The notes under the pieces: generated by a model
The model's database searches: none
What the model saw: the letters and a program-made list of their open reading frames with translations, nothing else
What the model was told of the DNA's origin: nothing
In this document: one piece after another, positions 1 through 35,054 of the stretch
How positions within the stretch are numbered: the stretch's first letter is position 1
How the letters are laid out: the number at the start of each line of letters is the position of its first letter
NCBI GenBank assembly: GCA_051294375.1
Contig: CM119270.1
Coordinates: 19,223,572 to 19,287,571 of the forward strand
DNA: 64,000 nt
DNA from: Paraspadella gotoi
Taxonomy: Eukaryota; Animalia; Chaetognatha
Direction: 5' to 3'
Made by a program: the position numbers and the translations under genes

Positions 1-49
1 TTTCTTAAAGAAATACAAACAAGTTCTTAATTAATATTTCTATTTTTAG

Positions 50-357
50 GTTTTTGACTGGTTAGTCGAAATGCCAGTTGGTCATCCTAAAAATCCCTAT
101 CATACAACTGTCTGGGGAGATTTTTATGAACTCAGCATAAATAGGAGTCTACGTCGTTCTTAGAAATCGAGGAAGACTTTTTCAATGGAGATTTTCACAA
201 CAGCGACCATGCTGAAATGAGACGAGTCGATAATGCGAGACTTCAGATCCAATTCCATCCAAAATCGGAAAACAAAGCTTTAACAGTATTGATTTTATCG
301 ACTTTTGATGCTAGTTTAACAATGTCATCTGACAGAAAAGTGTCAAAAGATTACTAA
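50..357 (+). pseudogene. Polinton/Maverick major capsid protein, C-terminal fragment
   Basis: 160-357 translates LEIEEDFFNGDFHNSDHAEMRRVDNARLQIQFHPKSENKALTVLILSTFDASLTMSSDRKVSKDY*. This fits the Polinton capsid C-terminal pattern (H..x.GN.RL.x.F...T.x.xx..FD..x.I...R.V..DY*). Frameshift near 160, candidate splice acceptor at 48-49, and the protease start follows immediately. Confidence 0.7.
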
Positions 358-374
358 AAAAACAAACAAAAAAC

Positions 375-479
375 ATGAATACTTTGGAAATTGAAAAAAT
401 TCTAACCGAGGACGTCTGTACTAAAAATCTATTTTTGGGAGTTTTTCCCATGAATCGCGTCCCTTCAAAAATTCCCAGT
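375..479 (+). pseudogene. Polinton adenain-like cysteine protease, N-terminal fragment truncated by a repeat end
   Basis: MNTLEIEKILTEDVCTKNLFLGVFPMNRVPSKIP resembles the MNT.QI..IL..D......F.GVFP.D.LP start of Polinton proteases. Similarity stops at 480, before the catalytic His. Confidence 0.7.
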
Positions 480-585
480 AGAGATAGTAAAAGGTCTGTT
501 CTATTGCGAAAAATGCCAAGAATGTTGATGTACATTCCTTTCTGATGACGTCATCACTTCCGGCCACACCCACTACTTCCGGTAT
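480..585 (+). repeat. TIR-like end starting AGAGATAG with GATGACGTCATCACTTCCGG motif
   Basis: About 488-552 is the reverse complement of about 2061-2128. Shares its start and CRE/ETS motif with the ends at 6100 and 34010. Confidence 0.6.
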
Positions 586-3268: not shown

Positions 3269-3659
3269 CTTTCGAAAATGGCGGAAAAGAGACGCAAAGG
3301 CGGTGGAATGAATGAATGCGAAATGAGAACAATTGAAAATAAAAGATTTGGATTAAAAAGAAACTTAAAAAAACTGTCTGGTGATAAGAAAGAATTATGT
3401 CTTTTGGCCCGCCTCTTATAAAAAATCCTTATCTTTAGATTTTGATCTCTTCTTTAAGATGAACATTCCGCAATGTTCTTTGGGGGAAAAAAGGGTTTAA
3501 ACCTTTACAATTTACTTTGTTGAAATTTTACCATCTAATTTTTTTTTTCTTTTAATCTTTTTTTTTTGTTTGTCGCCCTCGCAGATTTCTCATGCTATAA
3601 AAAGCCTCGTCTTTTTTGATTTTTTCAGATTGTCGGTTTTTTAAGATCATTTTCTTTAT

Positions 3660-5201
3660 ATGGAGGTTGACCAAGACATTGTTACATCTTTAAGTTGTCC
3701 AGTTTGTTTTTTGCATTTTACGACGAAAGATAAAATCTATACCTGCACTCAAGGTGAGAATAGAAAAAAATGTGTGTATTTTGTTTTCTTAAAAATATTT
3801 TTCATTTTCTCATCGATCCAAAAGATCGCTCTTATTAAAGTTTTTTCTCGTTTAAAAACATAAGATTCTCTTTTCCCCTTACCCTGTTAAAAATAGGGCA
3901 CCCCATCTGTTCTCAATGTTTTGAAAAAATTATTTGCAATAAAAGCCCAACCTGCGCAATCTGTCGAAATTCGGTAATTAATATTAAGAAGTTAATGGAA
4001 TAAAATAGAAATATTGTATATGGTTTTTTTATTTAGTTTATAACTTGCTGCGAAATTTGTCATCAGTTTAAATTTACAACATATTCAAGAGGCAGAGCTT
4101 TGGAAGAAGCTATTGCCGTCATTGAAAAAAACAAGTAACACCTCATTAATGATACCCTTATTAATGTTTTTTTTTAAATATTCATATCTGTCTCTATCTC
4201 AGATCTGACATCCAATCTCGTGACTCGACCATTAATTTCTTACAAAGTTCTTTAAGAGAAAATCAATTGGACTTGATTCGTTTAAGAAGAGAAATTAGAC
4301 GCAGAGATGAATTCGAACAAAACCAATGCCCGCAAAAAGGTTAATATTTATGTCTATATTTTTATTTTATATATTTTTATTATCAATGTTTGTAATATTT
4401 AGGCGCTTGGATTTGACATCGAGTCAGGGAGATGATGTAATTCCTATCGATCAATCAATCGTTTTAATCGAAAACGATTTTTTAGCGGACAATGCTGCCA
4501 ATCAGAGTACCGGCAGTGTCTCATCGACGACCGCTAAGAAGCAATGCAAGAGGTAAATGAAAAAAAAATAGATCTCTCTCTGTCTCTGACTTTTTTTTAT
4601 TTTATTTTATTATTTTAAGACCTCAAAATCTGTCTCTACGCCAATCAACCCTACACGAGTCCGATGGATTTGACGACATGCATCGTGGGTCAAAGATGGT
4701 CTTGTCTGACTACTGGGTTCTTTCTCCCTACGTCATTGTCAAGTTCACCGAGGATGAGAGTGGCATTTGGATCTACAAGGAAAGATACGTCACTAATCCT
4801 CATATTGGCCACGGAGATGGATCGGTTACTACGATTGCTTCAAAATCTCGAGCCATCGAACCGGTCACAAAAATTACCGTGAACAAAGAGGAGTCGGAAC
4901 GTCTCATTCATCTGTACGAAACGAAAGCCAAAGACGAGCTGAAGAAAGCTGGAGAGTCTCAGCGACATCGCCGACACTTAACGGCCCGCGTTATGCCGTG
5001 ACGGAGAGTTTGGGAATATCGATGAGCGTCTACAAGACCAAGGACGACTTATCGAAGGTTAACGTGTCCTTGCGTCCATATTTTATGGATCCAAATCTGG
5101 GTTTGCTATTCGTCACGTCTAATTTGGCCGGAATCTCTTTAAGCGCCGATGAATTTCATGGATTGCTTAAATTGATCCAAAAGATTGTCAAAGTGATCTA
5201 A
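3660..5201 (+). CDS. Six-exon gene: C3HC4 RING finger, coiled coil, KRRL motif, tandem PC4-like domains (two single-base frameshifts)
   Basis: Exons 3660-3753, 3897-3973, 4037-4134, 4203-4339, 4403-4552, 4620-5201, all GT-AG. Splicing assembles CPVC..CTQGHPICSQC..CAIC. The C-terminal VSLRPYFMDP..GISLSADEFHGL resembles PC4 IDIREYWMDP..GISLNPEQWSQL. Frameshifts near 4320 and 4960. Confidence 0.75.
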
Positions 5202-5347
5202 AAAAAAAACAAACTCAAAAAGAAACATTAATAATTGTTTATAATTGGGAAATGCCATCTATGTAATCGTTACTATTAAGCTTGCCAAAAAAAATAAAAT
5301 AAAATGCGCGCGCATTATGCTTAATCTTATTATTATTAATATATCAG

Positions 5348-6099
5348 ATGAAAAGAAGAAAAAAAATGGACGACGCCGAGATAGACTTGCTTAAAGAGAA
5401 AGACTTTGTCGATGATTCGTCGAAAGATTTTTGGTTTATGACTCCGGGAGTGGGCGTGAGAGTCTCTTCGCCACCGAGAAGTTATCACAAATCGCATTTT
5501 GGCTTTTTAGCGAAACGTCTCCTTCAGTCTCTCATCGAGGTGGATCGAATCCTTCACGACAATTTTCGCCCGCTCGATCACGCCGCTAACTTGACCGACA
5601 ATCTATCGTCGTCGTCGGAGCGATTCGCCTCAATCTTGGCGAGAGGCAAAGGAAGATGTTTGTAGAACTCTGAGCACCTGCGCGGCGCCCAACCTTCATT
5701 TATTGGGGATGTTTATGGATAGGGCTCTTTACGACGCTACTTTGATGACCGATATTATATCGGGTTTAAAACTAACTCAAAACTATTTTTCTCAAAACAA
5801 TGAAAATAGTCGCCATCTTCCGAAGGAAATGATTGTCATTCTCAGCACCATTGGTTGTGAACTTCATCATTTATGTAAATGGTTCGAACGTTACGACGCC
5901 TGCTTGCCTTTAGCCATTTTGCTAAATGCGGAGGGAAAGATTTGGCGTTATAATGTTATCAGTCATAACAACATCTTTAAGGAGGATAACAAAAATCTTT
6001 TTAATAAGTATCATTTATATTGGCAGAGAGAAGTAAATATTTTGTGTCATGTAAATTCTCCTCACGTTTATTTTTCAGATCCGTATGAGGGTAATTGTA
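5348..6099 (+). pseudogene. Hypothetical element-borne protein, disrupted near 5665-5700
   Basis: Two consecutive protein-like ORFs (5348-5665 and 5703-6152). The last codons run into the terminal repeat. No recognisable domain. Confidence 0.4.
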
Positions 6100-6850
6100 A
6101 GAGAGGGAAATATAGGCGTTCAGACGCAAAAATTCTTGACATACCTATCTGATGACGTCATCACTTCTGGTCATGACGTCATCACTTCCGGTCATGACGT
6201 CATCACTTCCGGTCATGACGTCATCACTTCCGGACATGACGTCATCACTTCTGGGGCATGACGTCATTTGCAGCCTTTGGCTATAACGTCATTGAAACAC
6301 TCCTATATTTTTTCCGTTATGACATCACCACTTAGCATTAAAGACGACGTCACTCTCACTATTTGCTGTAATTTTCTTTCTTGCGACTCTGAGAATGTTT
6401 TATGAAAGATGTCAGATTTTAGGTAATTAGTATTATCTTTTTAGCTAGCTGAATTCGATTTAATAGAAAAGAATTCCATGTATTTCGATTCACACCTAAT
6501 TCAACTGAAGAACTGGATGTTTACTGTCACCCATGGAACTTATGAATTTGAAACATTCGGGATTCTCGAAGAGAATCCCGAATGTTTCATTAAATCCTTT
6601 ATCATTTGTAGAAATTAAATTAAATGAATATTTGAAGGTAAAGATCGAGTTTAATATTTTGTTTTTTTCTTTATCGGTAGCCAGAGACATCACTCGCGAA
6701 TAAAGCGAAATCAAGACAAAAGATAAAGATCGATTATGGATATCAGTGAGACACTGATGGAAGTAGTATAGACAGAAACATTAGGGGATTCTCTTGTGAG
6801 AGAGAATCCCCTAATGTTTCATTAATAAACCTTTATCATTTGTAGACGTT
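6100..6850 (+). repeat. Left terminal inverted repeat (diverged) of a Polinton-like element
   Basis: Starts AGAGAG. 6100-6730 is a diverged reverse complement of about 33060-34010, for example GAGAATGTTTTATGAAAGAT and AATATTTGAAGGTAAAGATCGAGTTTAATATTTTG. Confidence 0.7.
6151..6270 (+). repeat. 21-bp tandem array (ATGACGTCATCACTTCCGGTC), about 5 copies
   Basis: Directly visible. The unit holds the palindrome ATGACGTCAT and ACTTCCGG. Confidence 0.95.
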
Positions 6851-6879
6851 AAACAATCATAATTATTATGACTGTGTAT

Positions 6880-7407
6880 CTATTTTATTTTTTGAACAAT
6901 TATGACACACATGATTGCAATTTTCACATCTAAAAGGATACATATCGAGTATTGTTTCAAATTTATAATACAAGAAATCGATAAATTGTTCAACATTATT
7001 TGTCCTTCGATTTTGAGGCCAGTAAAATCTTCGCTTCTCAGAATGTCATTGTCTTCGTTATCAACCTTTATCAAATTAGGTATAATTTCTAGGGTTGTGT
7101 CATCTTCATCATAATCGTTAGAATGGAAATCGATGAAAAAGTTTTTTTTACTTATACGCATAGTTTCGTCGTCGTCATAATCTCCCGTTTCATCGAATGA
7201 TAACATCTTAGGTTCGTACAAATGGTCGTTAATTATTTTTATATTTTCATTGATGAGACTTTTGTATTCTTGTAAATCGATGATGGTTGAAGTTGTTACA
7301 TGCATTTTGGGATCATTCAGTTCTATCTTTATGATTTTAATCTTTTCATTTTTTAGTCCCACAAAAAACAAGTTTTCGGTTATTTCATATTTTGTTTCTA
7401 ATTCCAT
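6880..7407 (-). CDS. Hypothetical 175-aa protein, possibly divergent PC4-like fold
   Basis: Intact ATG ORF. The beta-strand then IIDLQEYKSL helix pattern loosely recalls PC4. Co-oriented with its neighbours. Confidence 0.5.
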   Translation of the reverse strand: MELETKYEITENLFFVGLKNEKIKIIKIELNDPKMHVTTSTIIDLQEYKSLINENIKIINDHLYEPKMLSFDETGDYDDDETMRISKKNFFIDFHSNDYDEDDTTLEIIPNLIKVDNEDNDILRSEDFTGLKIEGQIMLNNLSISCIINLKQYSICILLDVKIAIMCVIIVQKIK

Positions 7408-7435: not shown

Positions 7436-7867
7436 TTATTTGTACAACGACAAAATTGAATCATGAGTATCATAAAAGAATTTTAAAAACGAAATATTTT
7501 TTTCATTTCCTCTGATGGCAATGTCAAATTTGCTTTTATTATCGCCCATCTTGCGAATGAATAGTTTGTTTCCCTCTGAGTTGTCGCCAGATTTTAATAT
7601 TATTTCCATTTTGATTTCATGACCGAATTGTATTTTCACGCTTTGAAGCCATTCTTTTTTTTCAGTCTTTTTTACAAATTTGAGAAGTCTTGATAAGTTT
7701 TCTTTATTCACGTAATTTTTAAATTCTTCTCCCGTCCAACAAATTTTTTTACGAACGCAAAAATTAATGCCAGTTTTTCTAATTTGTTTAATGTAAAGAT
7801 AACCATCATCGTTAGCGCGAAAATGTATTTGGTGACAAATATTTACACGTTCGTTCAATTTCGCCAT
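7436..7867 (-). CDS. Hypothetical basic 143-aa protein, possibly tandem PC4-like
   Basis: Intact ORF with good ATG context (AAGATGG) and TATAAA about 35 nt upstream. Contains LYIKQI..KICWTGEEFKNY. Confidence 0.55.
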   Translation of the reverse strand: MAKLNERVNICHQIHFRANDDGYLYIKQIRKTGINFCVRKKICWTGEEFKNYVNKENLSRLLKFVKKTEKKEWLQSVKIQFGHEIKMEIILKSGDNSEGNKLFIRKMGDNKSKFDIAIRGNEKNISFLKFFYDTHDSILSLYK

Positions 7868-13410: not shown

Positions 13411-14744
13411 GAATTTGTAAAATTATAGGCAAACTACGTATGTGAAAAAGAAGAGGGAGAGAGAGAGAGAGAGAGAGAGAGACTGTCATAGACATAGGTA
13501 CAAGTATTCGAATATAGCTCTCTCTCTCTCTCTCTCTCTTTCTAACTGCTTATCCCTAATCCCAACGCTAATCCTAAAACCAGATTTCTAATCCTTATCC
13601 CTTGCCTTAATCCTCATCCTTAACCCTAATCCCTAACCCTATCCATAAATTATTCCCTCAATCTAAACTTATCCCTAACCAAAACCCTAAGAAAAACTTA
13701 ATGAGAACGCCGGCCGTAATTTTCATTGGTAAGCTTTCAGCAATAACAACGCGCAACCTTTGATTTCTGCCCTCTCTCTTTTTCTCACTCACTCACTCAC
13801 TTGCTAACTCACTTACTCGTCAATTACTTTTCACACACTCTTTTTCAACTGATGTCTTTGTCTTTGTTTTTTCCGCACTGTCTGTAAATATTGACGCGAC
13901 GCTTACTGTTATAAATATTTTTACCCTACAAAAAATTAATTTTCTCAATCTTAAACTTGTTGTGTTAACACTGCACATTTTGGTTAATAACTTTGAAACT
14001 AATCAAAAATTTTAAAATCTGTTTTCTTTCATTTTAAACTTTAAGTGGTATAAAATTACAGATACAAAATTTTAATTAATAATTTTTAGTGGCTAGTTTT
14101 TATAAGTGATTGAAAATTGTGTTTTTTTAGGTATTTTTGACAGTTATTGGGTCATATTACTCAAAGTTAATTTTTAAAAGTCTATATATATACATATATT
14201 TGGAATCAGCTTGATCCCCTCTTTGTCTTGGGACAGAAAAATTTAATATAGACTGCATATCTCAAAAAAGGACAAAATGTTTTAATCTTGTAATCCAAGT
14301 TTTTCTAATGTGGTAATATTTTTTTTTTAATTTGGGGTTGTCTTAGGTTAAAGTGCACGTTTTACAATATTTTAAAATCATCACGTAATTTGATTTATTA
14401 TTTTTGACTATTTTAGTAAAAAAGTTTTTAAACTGATTTTTATGTGATAACTCCTAATGTTTTTTAAAATACCTCCCTGAAATTACATCAATATGTGCGG
14501 GCATGTTAGTCGATTATATGGACCAAAATAAAACAATTAAAAAAGAAATAGCTGTTTTAGAAGCAAAACAAAATAAAAAATAAATCAAGACCTTAGCGCA
14601 AAATTTTTGAATTGATTATTTTCCATCAGGTGGGCAATAGAGCAAATTTTCCTTCATCTTTTTACGAAATCTTAGCTCATTATAACGATAACTTTATGAG
14701 TTATTCATTCCCTGAACTTCGTGGAGTCTAGAGAAAAGGTACTG

Positions 14745-14918
14745 TAAGTTCTTCGTCTCCAACGCCCTCCACTCGGCGAGCTTAAACCACAGAGTCAAGA
14801 GTTCGCTTCCATTCGGTTTTGTCTCTTGAATTCTCACGGAATTTGTCTTTAAGTTTGCGTGACAAGTGACGCTAATGCGCTCTCCGATTGAAAACCGAGT
14901 AAACACGGACGAGTTCAT
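14745..14918 (-). pseudogene. 5' PC4-like domain of the split gene
   Basis: MNSSVFTRFSIGERISVTCH..SVRIQET..LTLWFKLAEWRALET resembles PC4 FQIGKMRYVSV..IDIRE..ISLNPEQWSQL. TATAAAAG lies near 15035. The ORF tail at 14694-14744 is transposon TIR. Confidence 0.55.
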
Positions 14919-23414: not shown

Positions 23415-24671
23415 TAGTTTAAATGCTTGATCTTCTTTAAATTGGCAACCGCCGAGCAGGACAAGTTTCCCGAAAGATCGGCCAAGTTAATTTCACGGAC
23501 GGCGGGTACGCCGAAGAATATTCGTTACGCCCTAGGACTTTGAGTTCGTAATCTCTGGGTATCAGGGAAGCTAACAGAGACAAGAGTTAAACAATCTTGC
23601 TCCGAGATTAATATTTACGACGCCTCTCTTTTTTTCGATAAAATTTTCGGGGTAGCCAGGGATGAAAGACACCGACTTTCTTCTTTCTTTCTTAAAATTG
23701 TACGAAAAAGGATGGTAACATAACGAATAAAGGTCAAGTCGCGCAATGTTTCCAGCCTTTGGAGATGAGAAAAGCTACCGTGAATAGAAAGAGAAAAAAT
23801 GAAATAAAAAAAGATGCCTCGGTGAACAAAAAACACTAAAACAAAACGAAAAAGTCCAATCGTAAATGATTAGCCTGACTCCCAGTTTATTACTACTTGA
23901 AAGTAAATATTTCCATGATGGTATCACAAAACCTCATCAAGTCTGTTCCCAAATTAATGCAATTCCGATTTTGTGTCGTAAAAGAAGGATAAACCAAGGA
24001 ATTGTCGTCAGGATGCAGGTAGGAATACAATATACAAATGTGAACTTTCACAACTGGAAAGCGTCTCAACATTTTTTTAATGTATGTTTTATAATTCCGT
24101 TTTCAGCAGACGCATCAGGGCTATCTTGTAGTCAGCCCTTACCAACTTGGGGACCAAACAAAGACCAGATTTGTACAACGTCCTTATTTTTTGCGACATA
24201 CCATGCCGGGCTGACATAGATACATCTGCACCTCCGACCAACATCATATTCGTTATCTTTTTCTCCTCCTCATGCCTCGCTCTTCTTCTTTCCTTCTGTC
24301 CTCCATTCAACGGGGCAAAGTTAGATGATCGACAGAAACGAACACGCCGGGTTTGACGCCGTGATTTCCCGTTGCTGTCGTTGTCGTCAGCTGGAGCGTT
24401 TCCGCAGCGCCTTTCCAATCTTGCGGGTTCGCAAGCTGCGACTGGCAGCCAAGGTTTGCTGCTCTCGTCCGGCGACGCGGGATGAACCAAGGAGAAGGGA
24501 TTTTCCCGGTTCTCTCACGAAAAGGTATGCGGGAGAATACGGAGGAGAAGAAGGAGGAATTGCCATCGATCTTCGTTTGTCATCATCGTTCATTGTCACG
24601 AGTCATTGTCATCATCTAGTTTTTAAATTCTTCGCTGTCTATATCATGTTAGAGAAAGGCAAGAAGCCATC
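23415..24671 (-). pseudogene. Polinton pPolB N-terminal region, noisy copy
   Basis: Colinear with 26366-27551, with more indels. Confidence 0.7.
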
Positions 24672-26365: not shown

Positions 26366-27551
26366 AATCGTTTAAATGCTCGATCTTCTTTAAATCGGCA
26401 ACCGCCACGGGACAAGTTTTCGAAAGATCGCCAAAGTTAATTTCGGAGGCGTACCAAAGATATTTGTTAGCCCTGGACTTTGAGTCCGTAATCTCTGGGT
26501 GAAGGGAAGCTAACAGAGACAAGAGTAAACAATCTTGCTCACGAGACTTAATGTTTACGACCGCCTTCTTTTTTTCGATAAATTTCGGGGTAGGGATGAA
26601 AGAACCGACTTTCTTCTTCTTTCTTAAATTGTAGAAAAAGGATGGTAACATACGAATAAAGGTCAAGTCCACATGTTCCAGCCTTTGGAAGATGAGAAAG
26701 CTTCCTGAAAGAAGAGAAAAAATGAAATAAAAAAAAGATTGCCTCGGTGAAAAACAGTAAAATAAACAAAACGAAAAAAGTCAATAGTAAATGATACCTG
26801 ACTCCAGTTTATTTACTATTTGTAAAGTAAATATTTCCATGATGGTATCCAAAACCTCATCCAAGTCTGTTCCCAAATTAATCAATTCCAATTTTGTGTC
26901 GTAAAAGAAGGATACCAAGGAATTGTCGTCAGGATGCAGGTAGGATACCAATATACAAATGTGAACTTTCACAACTGGAACGCGTCTCAACATTTTTTTA
27001 ATGTATGTTTTTAATTGCGTTTTCAGACGCATCAGGGCTATTTTGTAGTTAGCCACTTCCAACTTGGGGACCAAACAAACCGTTTTTACAACGTCCTTAT
27101 ATTTGCAACAACCATCCGGGCTGACAGAATACATCTGACCTCCAACATCATCTTCGTAATCTTTCTCCTCCTCATCCTCCTCTTCTTCTTCCTTCTGTCC
27201 TCCATTCAACGGGGCAAAGTTGATGATCGAAGAACGAACACCGGGTTTGACGGCCGTGATTTCCACGTTGCTGTCGTTGTCGTCAGCTGGGCGTTTCGCA
27301 GCGCCTCCAATTTGCGGCTGCAAGCTGCGACTGCAGCAAGGTTGCTGCTCATCGTCGGCGACGGCGGATGAACCCACAAGGAGAAGGGATTTTCCCGGTT
27401 CTCTCACGAAAGGTATGGGAGAATACGGAGGAGAAGAGGAGGAATTGCCATCATCTTCGTTGTCATCATCTTCATTGTCACGATCATTGTCATCATCTAG
27501 TTTTTAAATCTCTTCGCTGGTCTTATCATGGTTTAGAGAAGAAGAAGCCAT
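26366..27551 (-). pseudogene. Polinton/adintovirus protein-primed DNA polymerase B, N-terminal region, intron-containing and truncated
   Basis: Splicing out 26797-26705 gives KLESGSFLIFQRLEHVDLTF..GSFIPTPKFIEKKKAVVNIKSREQDCLLLSLLASLHP..RANKY..EINFGDL..PVAVADLKKIEHLN. This fits the GSGW..GSYIPLP..KKAxxNxxN.D..CF..LA.LHP..FE..N block. No exonuclease or polymerase motifs follow. Confidence 0.8.
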
Positions 27552-30452: not shown

Positions 30453-30704
30453 TCACCTCAATTTTAAATTTTCCATCTTAAGTTTGTTATTTATTCCTAC
30501 GTGTTGAACAACTTCAACATCGTGAGAATAAATTCCTATTAAATTTCGTTTACAACCTTGCCCCTGACATAATTTATAATAGTTTGTTCTACAAACTGAA
30601 CAATTAGGAATTATTTTTTGTTTTTCATCGCGAATTTTAATCTTTTTAAAACAATCGGTACAAACGACATGTCCATTTTCGCAAACAATTAATTGTGACG
30701 TCAT
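30453..30704 (-). CDS. Partial RING-finger protein lacking the first CxxC
   Basis: CENGHVVCTDC..CSVCR is similar to the 3660 RING. TATAAAAAG lies about 45 nt upstream. Confidence 0.65.
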   Translation of the reverse strand: MTSQLIVCENGHVVCTDCFKKIKIRDEKQKIIPNCSVCRTNYYKLCQGQGCKRNLIGIYSHDVEVVQHVGINNKLKMENLKLR

Positions 30705-33059: not shown

Positions 33060-34010
33060 ACATATATCTCTCATGTTTATCTTTTGTCTTTCAACAACTA
33101 GATTGCGCTTTATTCGCGAGTGATGTCTCTGGCTACCGATAGAAAAAACAAAATATTAAACTCGATCTTTACCTTCAAATATTCATTGTAATTATTGTTA
33201 TAAAATACAAGACCATTTAATTTCTACAAATGATGAAGGATTTAAAGAAACATTCGGGGATTCTCTTCAAGAATCCCCGAATGTTTCACATTCATAAGTT
33301 CCAGGCGTGATTGTTTACATCCAGTTTTTCATTTATATGCTTTGTTTCGTTAATTGAATTAGGAGTGAGTCACAATACACAGAATTCTTTTTTATTAAAT
33401 CGAATTCAGATGGCTAATAAGATAATTTTAATTATGATACTAATTACGAAAAATCTGAAATCTTTCATAAAACATTCTCAGTCGCAAGAAAGAAAAATGC
33501 AGCAAATGTTGAAATAGCGAGAGTGACGTCATCTTTAATGCTAAAGTGGTGACGTATTTTGATGACGTTATAACAGAAATTGATGACATAATATAGGAGT
33601 GTTTTAATGACGTAATAGCCAAAGGTAATGACGTCATAACCGAAGGTGACCTTGGCAAAGTGATGGCGTATTTTGGTGACGTCATAACAGGGAAGTGATG
33701 ACGTCATGACCGGAAGTGATGACGTCATGACCGGAAATGATGACGTCATAACCGGATGTGATGACGTCATGACCGGAAGTGAAAACGTCATGACCGGAAG
33801 CGATGACGTCATAACCGGAAGTGATGACGTCATAACCGAAAATGATGACGTCATGACCGGAAGTGGTGACGTCATGACTGGAAGTGATGACGTCATGACC
33901 GGAAGTGATGACGTCATAACCGGAAGTGATGACGTCATGACCGGAAGTGATGACGTCATGACCGGAAGTGATGACGTCATCTGCGCCTGAAAGCTTGTTT
34001 TTCTATCTCT
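33060..34010 (-). repeat. Right terminal inverted repeat, ending CTATCTCT
   Basis: Reverse complement of 6100-6730; host-type sequence follows. Confidence 0.7.
33680..33981 (-). repeat. 21-bp tandem array (GATGACGTCATGACCGGAAGT), about 14 copies
   Basis: Directly visible; inverted relative to 6151-6270. Confidence 0.95.
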
Positions 34011-34467
34011 TACATCTATATTTAGAATTTAAACTCATGATACAATTTTGACTTGTCCCAGAGTGATTTAGATTTATATCAATTGTGAAATCCAACTCGC
34101 GAAATTATTGACGTGATTCCAACTTATGACCTTTTTAAGACTCCCGGCGTCGAAAAAATACTAATCTGTTTTATTGATTGATTAATTAATATATATATAT
34201 ATATATTAATCATCGTTTTATTTCAGGTCGTGATTGTCAGTTGGTATTTTTAGTTAAATTCCGAAAATAAATTATACATAATTTTTTTCGCATTTAGGCA
34301 TTATTTTAAATATATTTTCCTAGTATTTTTATAACATCCCTTTGTCGAATTAAGCTAGCATAATAGTTAGCCTAATAGCCTTTTAAAATCCTATTTTTAG
34401 AAATCCTCCTCTTTCATTACCCATCTTTTCCTCACCAATTTTACCCCCCGCCCCATAATTAACTTAC

Positions 34468-35054
34468 CCCATCGTCTCGATCTTAACTTCCCCGCGACAA
34501 TCGACGCGCAGACCTCCGCGCGGGTAAGTCTCCCCCGCAGCTACTTCCCTCTCGTCGACTGTCAAGTAACAAACTTTCCCCGCCTGAGATTCGCTCTCGT
34601 CGAAACATCGGCTTCTCTTTTTATTCAATTCTTTGTCGTAGCAAAATTGGATCATCGGGTAATAAGGCAAGAGATAATCGGGTAATCGACATTCTTCGAA
34701 AGAGTTTTCCAAGACGAACGGCATCATGTTGACGCGAATCCCCGTCGGCGGAGGAAATTGGACCGCGTATTCTTGATCCGCGCGACGCGTCAATTTCGCG
34801 AAAAAGATGAGCGTGTCTTCCTCGTTCGACTTTCGACCGTACCACGGTTCGCACAATTTCTCCAACAAATCCCCGTACATTTCCACGGAAAAGTATTTGA
34901 CGTGTCTGCGCCATCGGGACTCGTTGGTGGCCAGAGTGACGATGGCGTCGACGAGGTGGGGCGTGCCGCGGAGAAGAGAGAGGGCGCTGTCGTCGTCGGC
35001 GACGCCTGAGTGGATGAGAGAGCAGACGACGGAGGGATGAAGGGGAGACGCCAT
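34468..35054 (-). CDS. First exon of a host gene, uncharacterised 2OG-Fe(II) oxygenase-like (DSBH) family
   Basis: FPPPTGIRVNMMPF..RLPDYLLPYYPMI..GKVCYLTVDEREVAAGETYPRGGLRVD. AAGATGG start and GTAAGT donor at 34467. Confidence 0.65.

What the first reader, a model, noticed from the sequence alone, without database searches (positions are those of the whole stretch)
3660..5201. RING-coiled coil-PAKRRLDL-tandem PC4 fusion assembled only by splicing
Seen: six GT-AG exons join a full C3HC4 RING, a coiled coil and two PC4-like domains. The exon 4/5 junction creates PAKR|RLDL. Established: E2F1 docks cyclin A through PVKRRLDL (RxL motif), and RING domains are E3 ligases. Inference: an ssDNA-targeted ubiquitin ligase that docks cyclin-CDK, like an immediate-early regulator. 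I do not recognise this architecture. The model needs two 1-nt frameshift corrections.
Basis: partly seen in the sequence, partly recalled or inferred. Interest (0 to 1): 0.78.

Follow-up and report, generated by a model that had tools for sequence, protein, structure and literature searches.

The report
Spliced RING–PC4 gene in Maverick virus
An intron-split gene, likely from a virus-like Maverick element in a eukaryote genome, encodes a RING zinc finger, a likely coiled coil and two likely single-stranded-DNA-binding repeats that would fuse only if one exon is skipped; the claimed cell-cycle docking motif is not supported by the copies sequenced in five public runs.

Summary
The exons are real. 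One GT-AG intron rebuilds a canonical C3HC4 RING: the only such case in 36 kb, and 0 of 755 shuffles gave one. The last repeat is weakly but consistently PC4-like; the first repeat is inconclusive.

Across the break near 4960, copies in 4 of 4 runs keep both repeats in one frame. At the break near 4320, copies in 5 of 5 runs differ from the window but do not reach the PAKR frame; exon 4 joined to exon 5 then stops early (RING plus coiled coil, about 145 aa). PAKRRLDL is therefore unsupported.

A RING–PC4–PC4 protein (about 330 aa) is still possible by skipping exon 4. That join is open on the window's own letters and gives a weak KxLxL motif. No RNA junction was seen.

The context looks like nested Maverick/Polinton remnants, from (AG)3-started inverted arms and capsid/protease-like fragments recognised by eye. 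Adintovirus maps already label MOSUB and SSDBP genes. Verdict: new variant of a known kind; fusion unproven.

The parts
3596..3601 (+). TATAAA box 64 nt upstream of the start codon
   Evidence: sequence
3660..3753 (+). Exon 1: ATG, first CxxC and third Cys of the RING
   Evidence: weak Pfam RING-type hits (E 0.039, 0.11)
3897..3973 (+). Exon 2: H-x2-C-x2-C...C-x2-C half of the C3HC4 RING
   Evidence: zf-C3HC4_3 E 0.0031; RNF4 and TRAF3 RINGs E 0.001 and 0.0034
4037..4134 (+). Exon 3: extra CC-x2-C and a helix after the RING; its donor is in the same phase as the acceptors of exons 4, 5 and 6
   Evidence: 3 of 5 copy differences at third codon positions
4203..4339 (+). Exon 4: likely coiled coil (a-positions I,I,L,L,I); broken near 4320 in the window
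   Evidence: 1 substitution in 137 nt between copies; length difference in 5 of 5 runs
4403..4552 (+). Exon 5: acidic Ser/Thr-rich linker in its one open frame; both other frames stop early
   Evidence: 5 of 8 listed copy differences at third positions of the open frame
4620..4962 (+). Exon 6, first part: repeat 1, strands then helix, possibly a degenerate PC4-like repeat; window broken near 4960
   Evidence: AF2 pLDDT 52; no PC4 match
4977..5201 (+). Exon 6, second part: repeat 2, PC4-like, and stop codon
   Evidence: AF2 pLDDT 71; Foldseek PDB ranks 1-6 all PC4/Pur/Sub1; BFVD ranks 1-2 viral PC4; the only 3 PDB sequence hits are human PC4, E 0.67-1.6
5293..5298 (+). AATAAA, the first one after exon 4; none lies between exons 4 and 6
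1..476 (+). Context: end of a Maverick major-capsid-like gene followed by the start of an adenain-like protease gene, cut off at a terminus-like sequence
   Evidence: translation; identity recognised by eye from recalled motifs; no database hit
6100..6853 (+). Context: arm starting AGAGAG with a 21-bp tandem repeat; inverted copy at about 33073-34010
   Evidence: (AG)3 end motif described in PMC8097293

Best explanation
This is an intron-split gene, likely an accessory gene of a Maverick/Polinton (adintovirus-type) endogenous virus, whose three RING exons would be spliced two ways: with exon 4 to give a short RING plus coiled-coil protein (about 145 aa), or skipping exon 4 to give a RING-linker-PC4-PC4 protein (about 330 aa). 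Shown: the exons, the RING pattern, the open exon 3-5-6 join, and the frame state of the copies in public runs. Predicted: repeat 2 has a PC4-like fold. Inferred: the two repeats fold together as one PC4/Pur-type domain that binds single-stranded DNA, such as the strand displaced during protein-primed replication; the RING recruits a host E2 and ubiquitylates host proteins at that DNA; the short form dimerises through its coiled coil and acts away from DNA. Cyclin docking is possible but weakly supported.
For: Spliced C3HC4 unique in 36 kb, 0 of 755 shuffles. Exon 3-5-6 join open for 248 codons with no correction, and copies in 4 of 4 runs are open across the second break. Exons 4, 5 and 6 all accept the exon 3 donor in frame. 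One TATA box upstream, and the first AATAAA after exon 4 lies behind exon 6, which fits one transcription unit. Exon 4 is nearly invariant between copies (1/137 nt) beside introns at 6/68 and 7/63; exon 5 differences fall 5 of 8 at third positions of its open frame, so both look used. PC4-like evidence for repeat 2 from sequence and from structure. Maverick-type inverted arms with an (AG)3 start. Several copy types per run. Adintovirus maps label MOSUB and SSDBP genes (PMC8502044 Fig. S2 text).
Against: No spliced read or contig: splicing and exon skipping are inferred. Third-position bias over all exons is not significant (12 of 26, p=0.12). The intron excess comes from introns 3 and 4 only (part of intron 1 has 1/73, intron 2 has 1/63). 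Every PC4 match is below usual thresholds (Foldseek E 0.06 in PDB, 0.007 in BFVD). Pfam did not report the PC4 family. By VIA Z-score unrelated folds tie with or beat PC4 (5.6 vs 5.0). Repeat 1 matches no PC4 protein, has no net basic charge (12 K/R vs 13 D/E) and does not align with repeat 2. The Maverick core-gene fragments got no database hit, no target-site duplication was seen at the arms, and intact vertebrate Mavericks are reported intronless (PMC8097293).
Confidence: 0.5

Rival explanations
1. RING and PC4 parts are never in one protein: a RING plus coiled-coil protein ends early in exon 5, and a separate tandem PC4-like protein starts at an ATG in exon 6 (4678 or 4696).
For: In 5 of 5 runs exon 4 joined to exon 5 ends at a stop. 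An ATG-started ORF exists at 4678. The window holds a stand-alone second RING ORF (30456-30703) and, by eye, stand-alone PC4-like ORFs.
Against: No TATAAA or AATAAA between exons 4 and 6. Exon 5 is open in the frame that links exon 3 to exon 6, has proper splice sites, and has 5 of 8 differences at third positions.
Confidence: 0.25
2. The full RING-coiled coil-linker-PC4-PC4 chain exists, using a second acceptor 25 nt inside exon 5; it would carry no RRLDL motif.
For: An AG at 4426-4427 would link exon 4 of the sequenced copies to the open frame of exon 5 (sequence). Exon 4 is strongly conserved.
Against: That AG has a purine-rich upstream stretch and lies behind two other AGs, unlike the AT-rich intron ends before the five clear acceptors.
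Confidence: 0.12
3. It is a host gene, or a domesticated copy, that merely lies among Maverick debris.
For: Five introns; intact vertebrate Mavericks are intronless (PMC8097293). No core viral gene was confirmed by a database hit.
Against: Several copy types per run and depth from 12 to 1511 between runs. Tight packing among short orphan ORFs between terminus-like repeats.
Confidence: 0.1
4. One reading: one six-exon protein with PAKRRLDL that docks cyclin-CDK like E2F1.
For: PAKR and RLDL lie in one window frame on either side of intron 4. E2F1 uses VKRRLDL (PMC12356897). In run X1 only 141 of 208 depth units at the break are accounted for.
Against: In X2, X3, X6 and X7 all depth at that place carries a length difference that leads to another frame. 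No copy showed the correction the model needs.
Confidence: 0.03

Closest known systems
Adintovirus / Maverick accessory genes labelled MOSUB and SSDBP (Starrett et al. 2021, PMC8502044, Supplementary Fig. S2)
   Same: PC4/Sub1-like or ssDNA-binding labels on accessory genes of animal Polintons; MOSUB is printed next to the ITR label in the map text.
   Different: Labels only, on separate ORFs. The main text has no occurrence of RING, splic- or MOSUB. Here two repeats follow RING exons in one intron-split unit.
Human PC4 (SUB1) C-terminal domain, MoSub1, phage T5 PC4, Pur-alpha and Whirly (PC4-like family, PMC7549692)
   Same: Strands-then-helix topology. Repeat 2 aligns with human PC4 over the R-x-Y-aromatic-M-D-P and G-I-S-L stretches. 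Two repeats in one chain is the type I arrangement of Whirly, MRP1/2 and Pur-alpha.
   Different: The basic residues before GISL in PC4 are missing in repeat 2; repeat 1 is highly divergent. 'RING' does not occur in the review's text.
RING finger proteins of endogenous polinton-like viruses and virophages (bioRxiv 10.64898/2026.07.28.741278)
   Same: RING genes are common accessory genes in this virus group (passage).
   Different: Protist elements; the passage gives no fusion to PC4-like domains and no splicing.
Baculovirus IE2/PE38/CG30 and herpesvirus ICP0; cellular RAD18 and RFWD3 (all recalled, not tested here)
   Same: Viral RING, often with a coiled coil, as early E3 ligases; cellular RING ligases recruited to ssDNA sites.
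   Different: As recalled, none carries PC4-like repeats, and the cellular ones reach ssDNA mainly through RPA. No sequence similarity was tested.

Membership tests
C3HC4 RING finger | C-x2-C...C-x1-3-H-x2-3-C-x2-C...C-x2-C ligand spacing | tested here: met
   the exon 2 half matches RING profiles and solved RINGs
C3HC4 RING finger | E2-dependent ubiquitin ligase activity | not testable with these tools
   needs an in vitro assay
PC4-like domain family | Four strands then a helix, resembling PC4/Pur/Sub1 (repeat 2) | tested here: met
   each match weak (E 0.007-1.6), with Z-scores tied with unrelated folds
PC4-like domain family | Same fold in repeat 1 | tested here: inconclusive
   low-confidence model, pLDDT 52; no PC4 row
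PC4-like domain family | Helix-swapped pairing of the two repeats (type I domain) | not tested
PC4-like domain family | ssDNA/RNA binding | not testable with these tools
   needs a binding assay
Pfam PC4 family (PF02229) | Score above the family's profile threshold | tested here: not met
   no Pfam family reported for either repeat at E<=1 or E<=10
Maverick/Polinton (adintovirus) | Core genes: pPolB, integrase, packaging ATPase, capsids, protease | tested here: inconclusive
   capsid-, protease- and polymerase-N-terminus-like fragments seen by eye only; no hit; the gene lies near the window's left edge
Maverick/Polinton (adintovirus) | Terminal inverted repeats with (AG)3 or (AGT)2 ends | tested here: inconclusive
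   inverted arms 6152-6730 / 33073-33770 (74%) with AGAGAG at 6100, and 483-554 / 2061-2132 (92%) with AGTAGA at 477; they flank neighbouring segments, not the gene's own segment as a matched pair
Maverick/Polinton (adintovirus) | 6-bp target-site duplication | tested here: not met
   flanks of the 6100 and 34010 ends differ; nested insertions may hide it
Cyclin-docking RxL motif | PAKRRLDL at the exon 4/5 junction | tested here: not met
   not in the window as it stands, nor reached in the copies of 5 of 5 runs
Cyclin-docking RxL motif | Strict consensus match at another junction | tested here: met
   KNKRLDLT at the exon 3/5 join; 0.76 matches expected by chance in 330 aa; under 15% of such matches bind (PMC12356897)
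Adintovirus Oncoid proteins | LxCxE Rb-binding motif | tested here: not met
   none in any exon piece or in four neighbouring ORFs

The most novel reading that the evidence does not exclude
A still-active adintovirus-type element has an alternatively spliced early gene in the style of adenovirus early units. One RING module is joined either to a coiled coil or to a tandem PC4-like ssDNA-binding domain, giving a ubiquitin ligase aimed directly at single-stranded viral replication intermediates, with a cyclin-docking motif created by the splice into exon 5.
Probability: 0.2. Interest if true: 0.7.

Novelty: new variant of a known kind. Interest (0 to 1): 0.4.

Why it matters
How animal Mavericks/adintoviruses handle displaced single strands and host defences is largely unknown, and their genes are described as intronless in vertebrates. 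A spliced unit that can join an E3-type RING to PC4-like repeats would give a concrete, testable host-interaction protein, and a domain pairing that I did not find in the searches named in the report. The result also shows how a short motif can arise from choosing the wrong frameshift correction in an error-prone assembly.

Tried and rejected
No sequence relatives found. Repeat 1 against 1.84 billion representatives: 0 hits at E<=0.001; longer proteins: 0 of 14 candidates. Repeat 2 in viral contigs: 0 of 43 stretches; in metagenome contigs: 0 of 529. ESM Atlas gave no usable hit for either repeat. These blanks show neither novelty nor absence.

Context fragments got no confirmation. Capsid-like piece. 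Protease-like piece. Polymerase-N-terminus-like piece. The 20-nt core of the terminal repeat had 0 matches in viral contigs. Pfam on 148 ORFs gave only the second RING as a credible hit; PHROGs and NCBIfam on 13 pieces gave one hit outside the element.

No RNA holder was listed by the run search. Run X7, guessed as RNA, holds a contig that keeps introns 1-4, so it does not test splicing. 5 of the 11 listed runs were laid. A short A-tailed contig at 5200-5235 in X7 has 6 differences in 36 nt and was set aside as unrelated. No whole genome is held for this window. Aligning the five PC4-like candidates gave no invariant column. Paper searches returned nothing; two returned one C. elegans annotation paper (listing only).

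Full report
Setting. The window is a gapped eukaryotic scaffold: 11 runs of N, many of 10 or 25 letters, and several 1-3 kb repeats at 80-92% identity. No genome is held for it. An invertebrate animal host is my inference from the short AT-rich introns and the element type; it was not tested.

The exons. Six segments are bounded by GT..AG, with introns of 143, 63, 68, 63 and 67 nt. On the window's own letters, exons 1-4 join in frame and give a canonical C3HC4 RING followed by a helix with hydrophobic a-positions in 5 of 6 heptads. A scan of candidate 50-200 nt GT-AG joins in 1-36000, both strands, found exactly one that builds a C3HC4 pattern, the 3754-3896 intron; 0 of 755 block shuffles gave any. 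The exon 2 half matches zf-C3HC4_3 at E 0.0031 and the RNF4 and TRAF3 RINGs. A TATAAA lies at 3596, and the first AATAAA after exon 4 is at 5293.

The C-terminal repeats. Repeat 2 (4977-5198) folds from a single sequence at pLDDT 71 into strands followed by a helix. Foldseek's first six PDB rows are T5 PC4, Pur-alpha, BPSL1147 and MoSub1 chains (E 0.06-0.14), and the first two viral rows are annotated PC4 proteins (E 0.007 and 0.009). The only 3 of 177,635 PDB sequences matched at E<=10 are human PC4. Against this, no match is significant alone, Pfam reports nothing, and by VIA Z-score DCAF15 (5.6) ties with BPSL1147 (5.0; rmsd 4.2 over 65 residues). Repeat 1 gave a poor model (pLDDT 52) with a similar strand-helix order and no PC4 row, and it does not align with repeat 2. 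Two such repeats in one chain is the type I arrangement described in PMC7549692 (abstract and sections 8 and 12 read). Whether they pair here is untested.

The two breaks. Nine runs from three studies hold part of the stretch. I laid 5 of the 11 listed runs, all kept as contigs. They contain copies mostly about 95% identical to the window, often several types per run, with introns retained and no joints. Near 4320, 5 of 5 runs carry a small length difference in exon 4: all depth in X2, X3, X6 and X7, and 141 of 208 in X1. It does not lead into the frame that reads PAKR. Followed through the 4340/4402 splice sites, those copies enter a frame of exon 5 that stops about ten codons in, and the contigs spanning that stop show no difference there. 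The product would be RING plus coiled coil, about 145 aa. The window's own letters stop at residue 140. PAKRRLDL thus has no support. No listed contig clearly shows the window's form at either break, so assembly error is the likelier cause, although a private mutation is not excluded.

What remains of the fusion. The exon 3 donor is in phase with the acceptors of exons 4, 5 and 6. Joining exons 1-2-3-5-6 is open for 248 codons up to the second break with no correction, and would give about 330 aa in the sequenced copies. Both exon 4 and exon 5 look used. In 3824-4453, chosen because the listed rows there are nearly complete (14 of 15 and 8 of 8 differences in two X6 contigs), introns differ at 15/267 nt and exons at 8/363 (p=0.021). 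Exon 4 differs at 1/137, and exon 5 differences fall 5 of 8 at third positions of its open frame. Caveats: one search listed 40 of 68 differences, the excess comes from introns 3 and 4, and the third-position bias over all exons is 12 of 26 (p=0.12). The simplest reading is one unit with alternative splicing, but no RNA evidence was obtained.

The cyclin motif. E2F1 does use VKRRLDL (PMC12356897, passages). The exon 3/5 join gives KNKRLDLT, a strict-consensus match. By my reading, the short form's tail in the sequenced copies also fits the consensus. However, 0.76 strict matches are expected by chance in 330 residues of this DNA, Lys and Leu are the less preferred core residues, and under 15% of strict matches bound a cyclin in that study. 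Docking is possible, not indicated.

Context. Positions 1-476 translate to what I recognise, from memory only, as the end of a Maverick major capsid protein and the start of an adenain-type protease; no search confirmed this. Terminus-like sequences with a shared GATGACGTCAT core occur at about 477, 2140, 6100 and 34010, as two inverted pairs. The one at 6100 starts with AGAGAG, an end motif given for Mavericks in PMC8097293 (passages). That paper also places capsid and protease in one module, describes flanking accessory regions and reports intact vertebrate elements as intronless. No target-site duplication was found. The gene lies between these termini among short orphan ORFs, and the next ORF downstream follows it in the sequenced copies too. 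I put the Maverick assignment at about 80%.

What is known. Starrett et al. (PMC8502044; passages, section 3.2 and the text of Supplementary Fig. S2 seen) label MOSUB and SSDBP accessory genes on adintovirus maps. The slide figures and the sequence files of that supplement could not be seen and may hold RING or fused examples. RING proteins are shared accessory genes of endogenous polinton-like viruses (10.64898/2026.07.28.741278, passage). Searches and passages of 10.64898/2026.10.13.758929 and PMC5803895 showed no RING-PC4 fusion; the library lacks most subscription papers. Earlier notes of this scan report intron-split PC4-like genes in other Polintons; they are unchecked leads.

Verdict. 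A real, multi-copy, intron-split accessory gene with a solid RING, a likely coiled coil and at least one PC4-like repeat. The headline motif is unsupported, and the RING-PC4 fusion is plausible only through an unobserved splice form. New variant of a known kind; interest 0.4.

Noticed in passing
runs laid on window 3500-5400: Run X6 shows depth about 1000-1500 on single contigs of this gene, against 12-141 in four other runs. Not normalised to host genes; it could be deeper sequencing or amplification of the element in that sample.
   Followed up: no
window 6152-6267 (+) and 33677-33980 (-): 21-bp tandem repeat (5.5 and 14.4 copies) whose unit holds TGACGTCA next to CACTTCCGG, recalled as CRE-like and ETS-like factor sites; it sits inside the inverted arms and could act as a terminal enhancer or origin.
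   Followed up: partly
window 477-554 and 2061-2140: 72-bp inverted pair at 92% identity enclosing about 1.6 kb without long ORFs; it cuts off the protease-like gene and may be a small non-autonomous derivative.
   Followed up: partly
window 6880-7407 (-), 7436-7867 (-), 14697-14918 (-): Three more short ORFs that by eye show a PC4-like strands-then-helix pattern; no Pfam support and no invariant column in an alignment.
   Followed up: partly
window 30456-30703 (-): Second RING-type ORF (Sina_RING E 2.5e-05) behind a TATA-like box, lacking the first CxxC pair in its open frame; weakly similar to exon 2.
   Followed up: partly
window 26784-27020 (-) and 23873-24090 (-): Fragments recalled as resembling the N-terminal region of Polinton DNA polymerases, inside 3-kb repeats separated by N gaps that may be mis-assembled copies; no hit found.
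   Followed up: partly
window 34464-35054 (-): 196-aa ORF just outside the right arm matching phrog_8970 (unknown function, E 3e-08).
   Followed up: no
window 5348-5665 (+) and 5595-6152 (+): Two orphan ORFs downstream of the gene; the second runs into the terminus-like sequence at 6100, as if interrupted by a later insertion.
   Followed up: no
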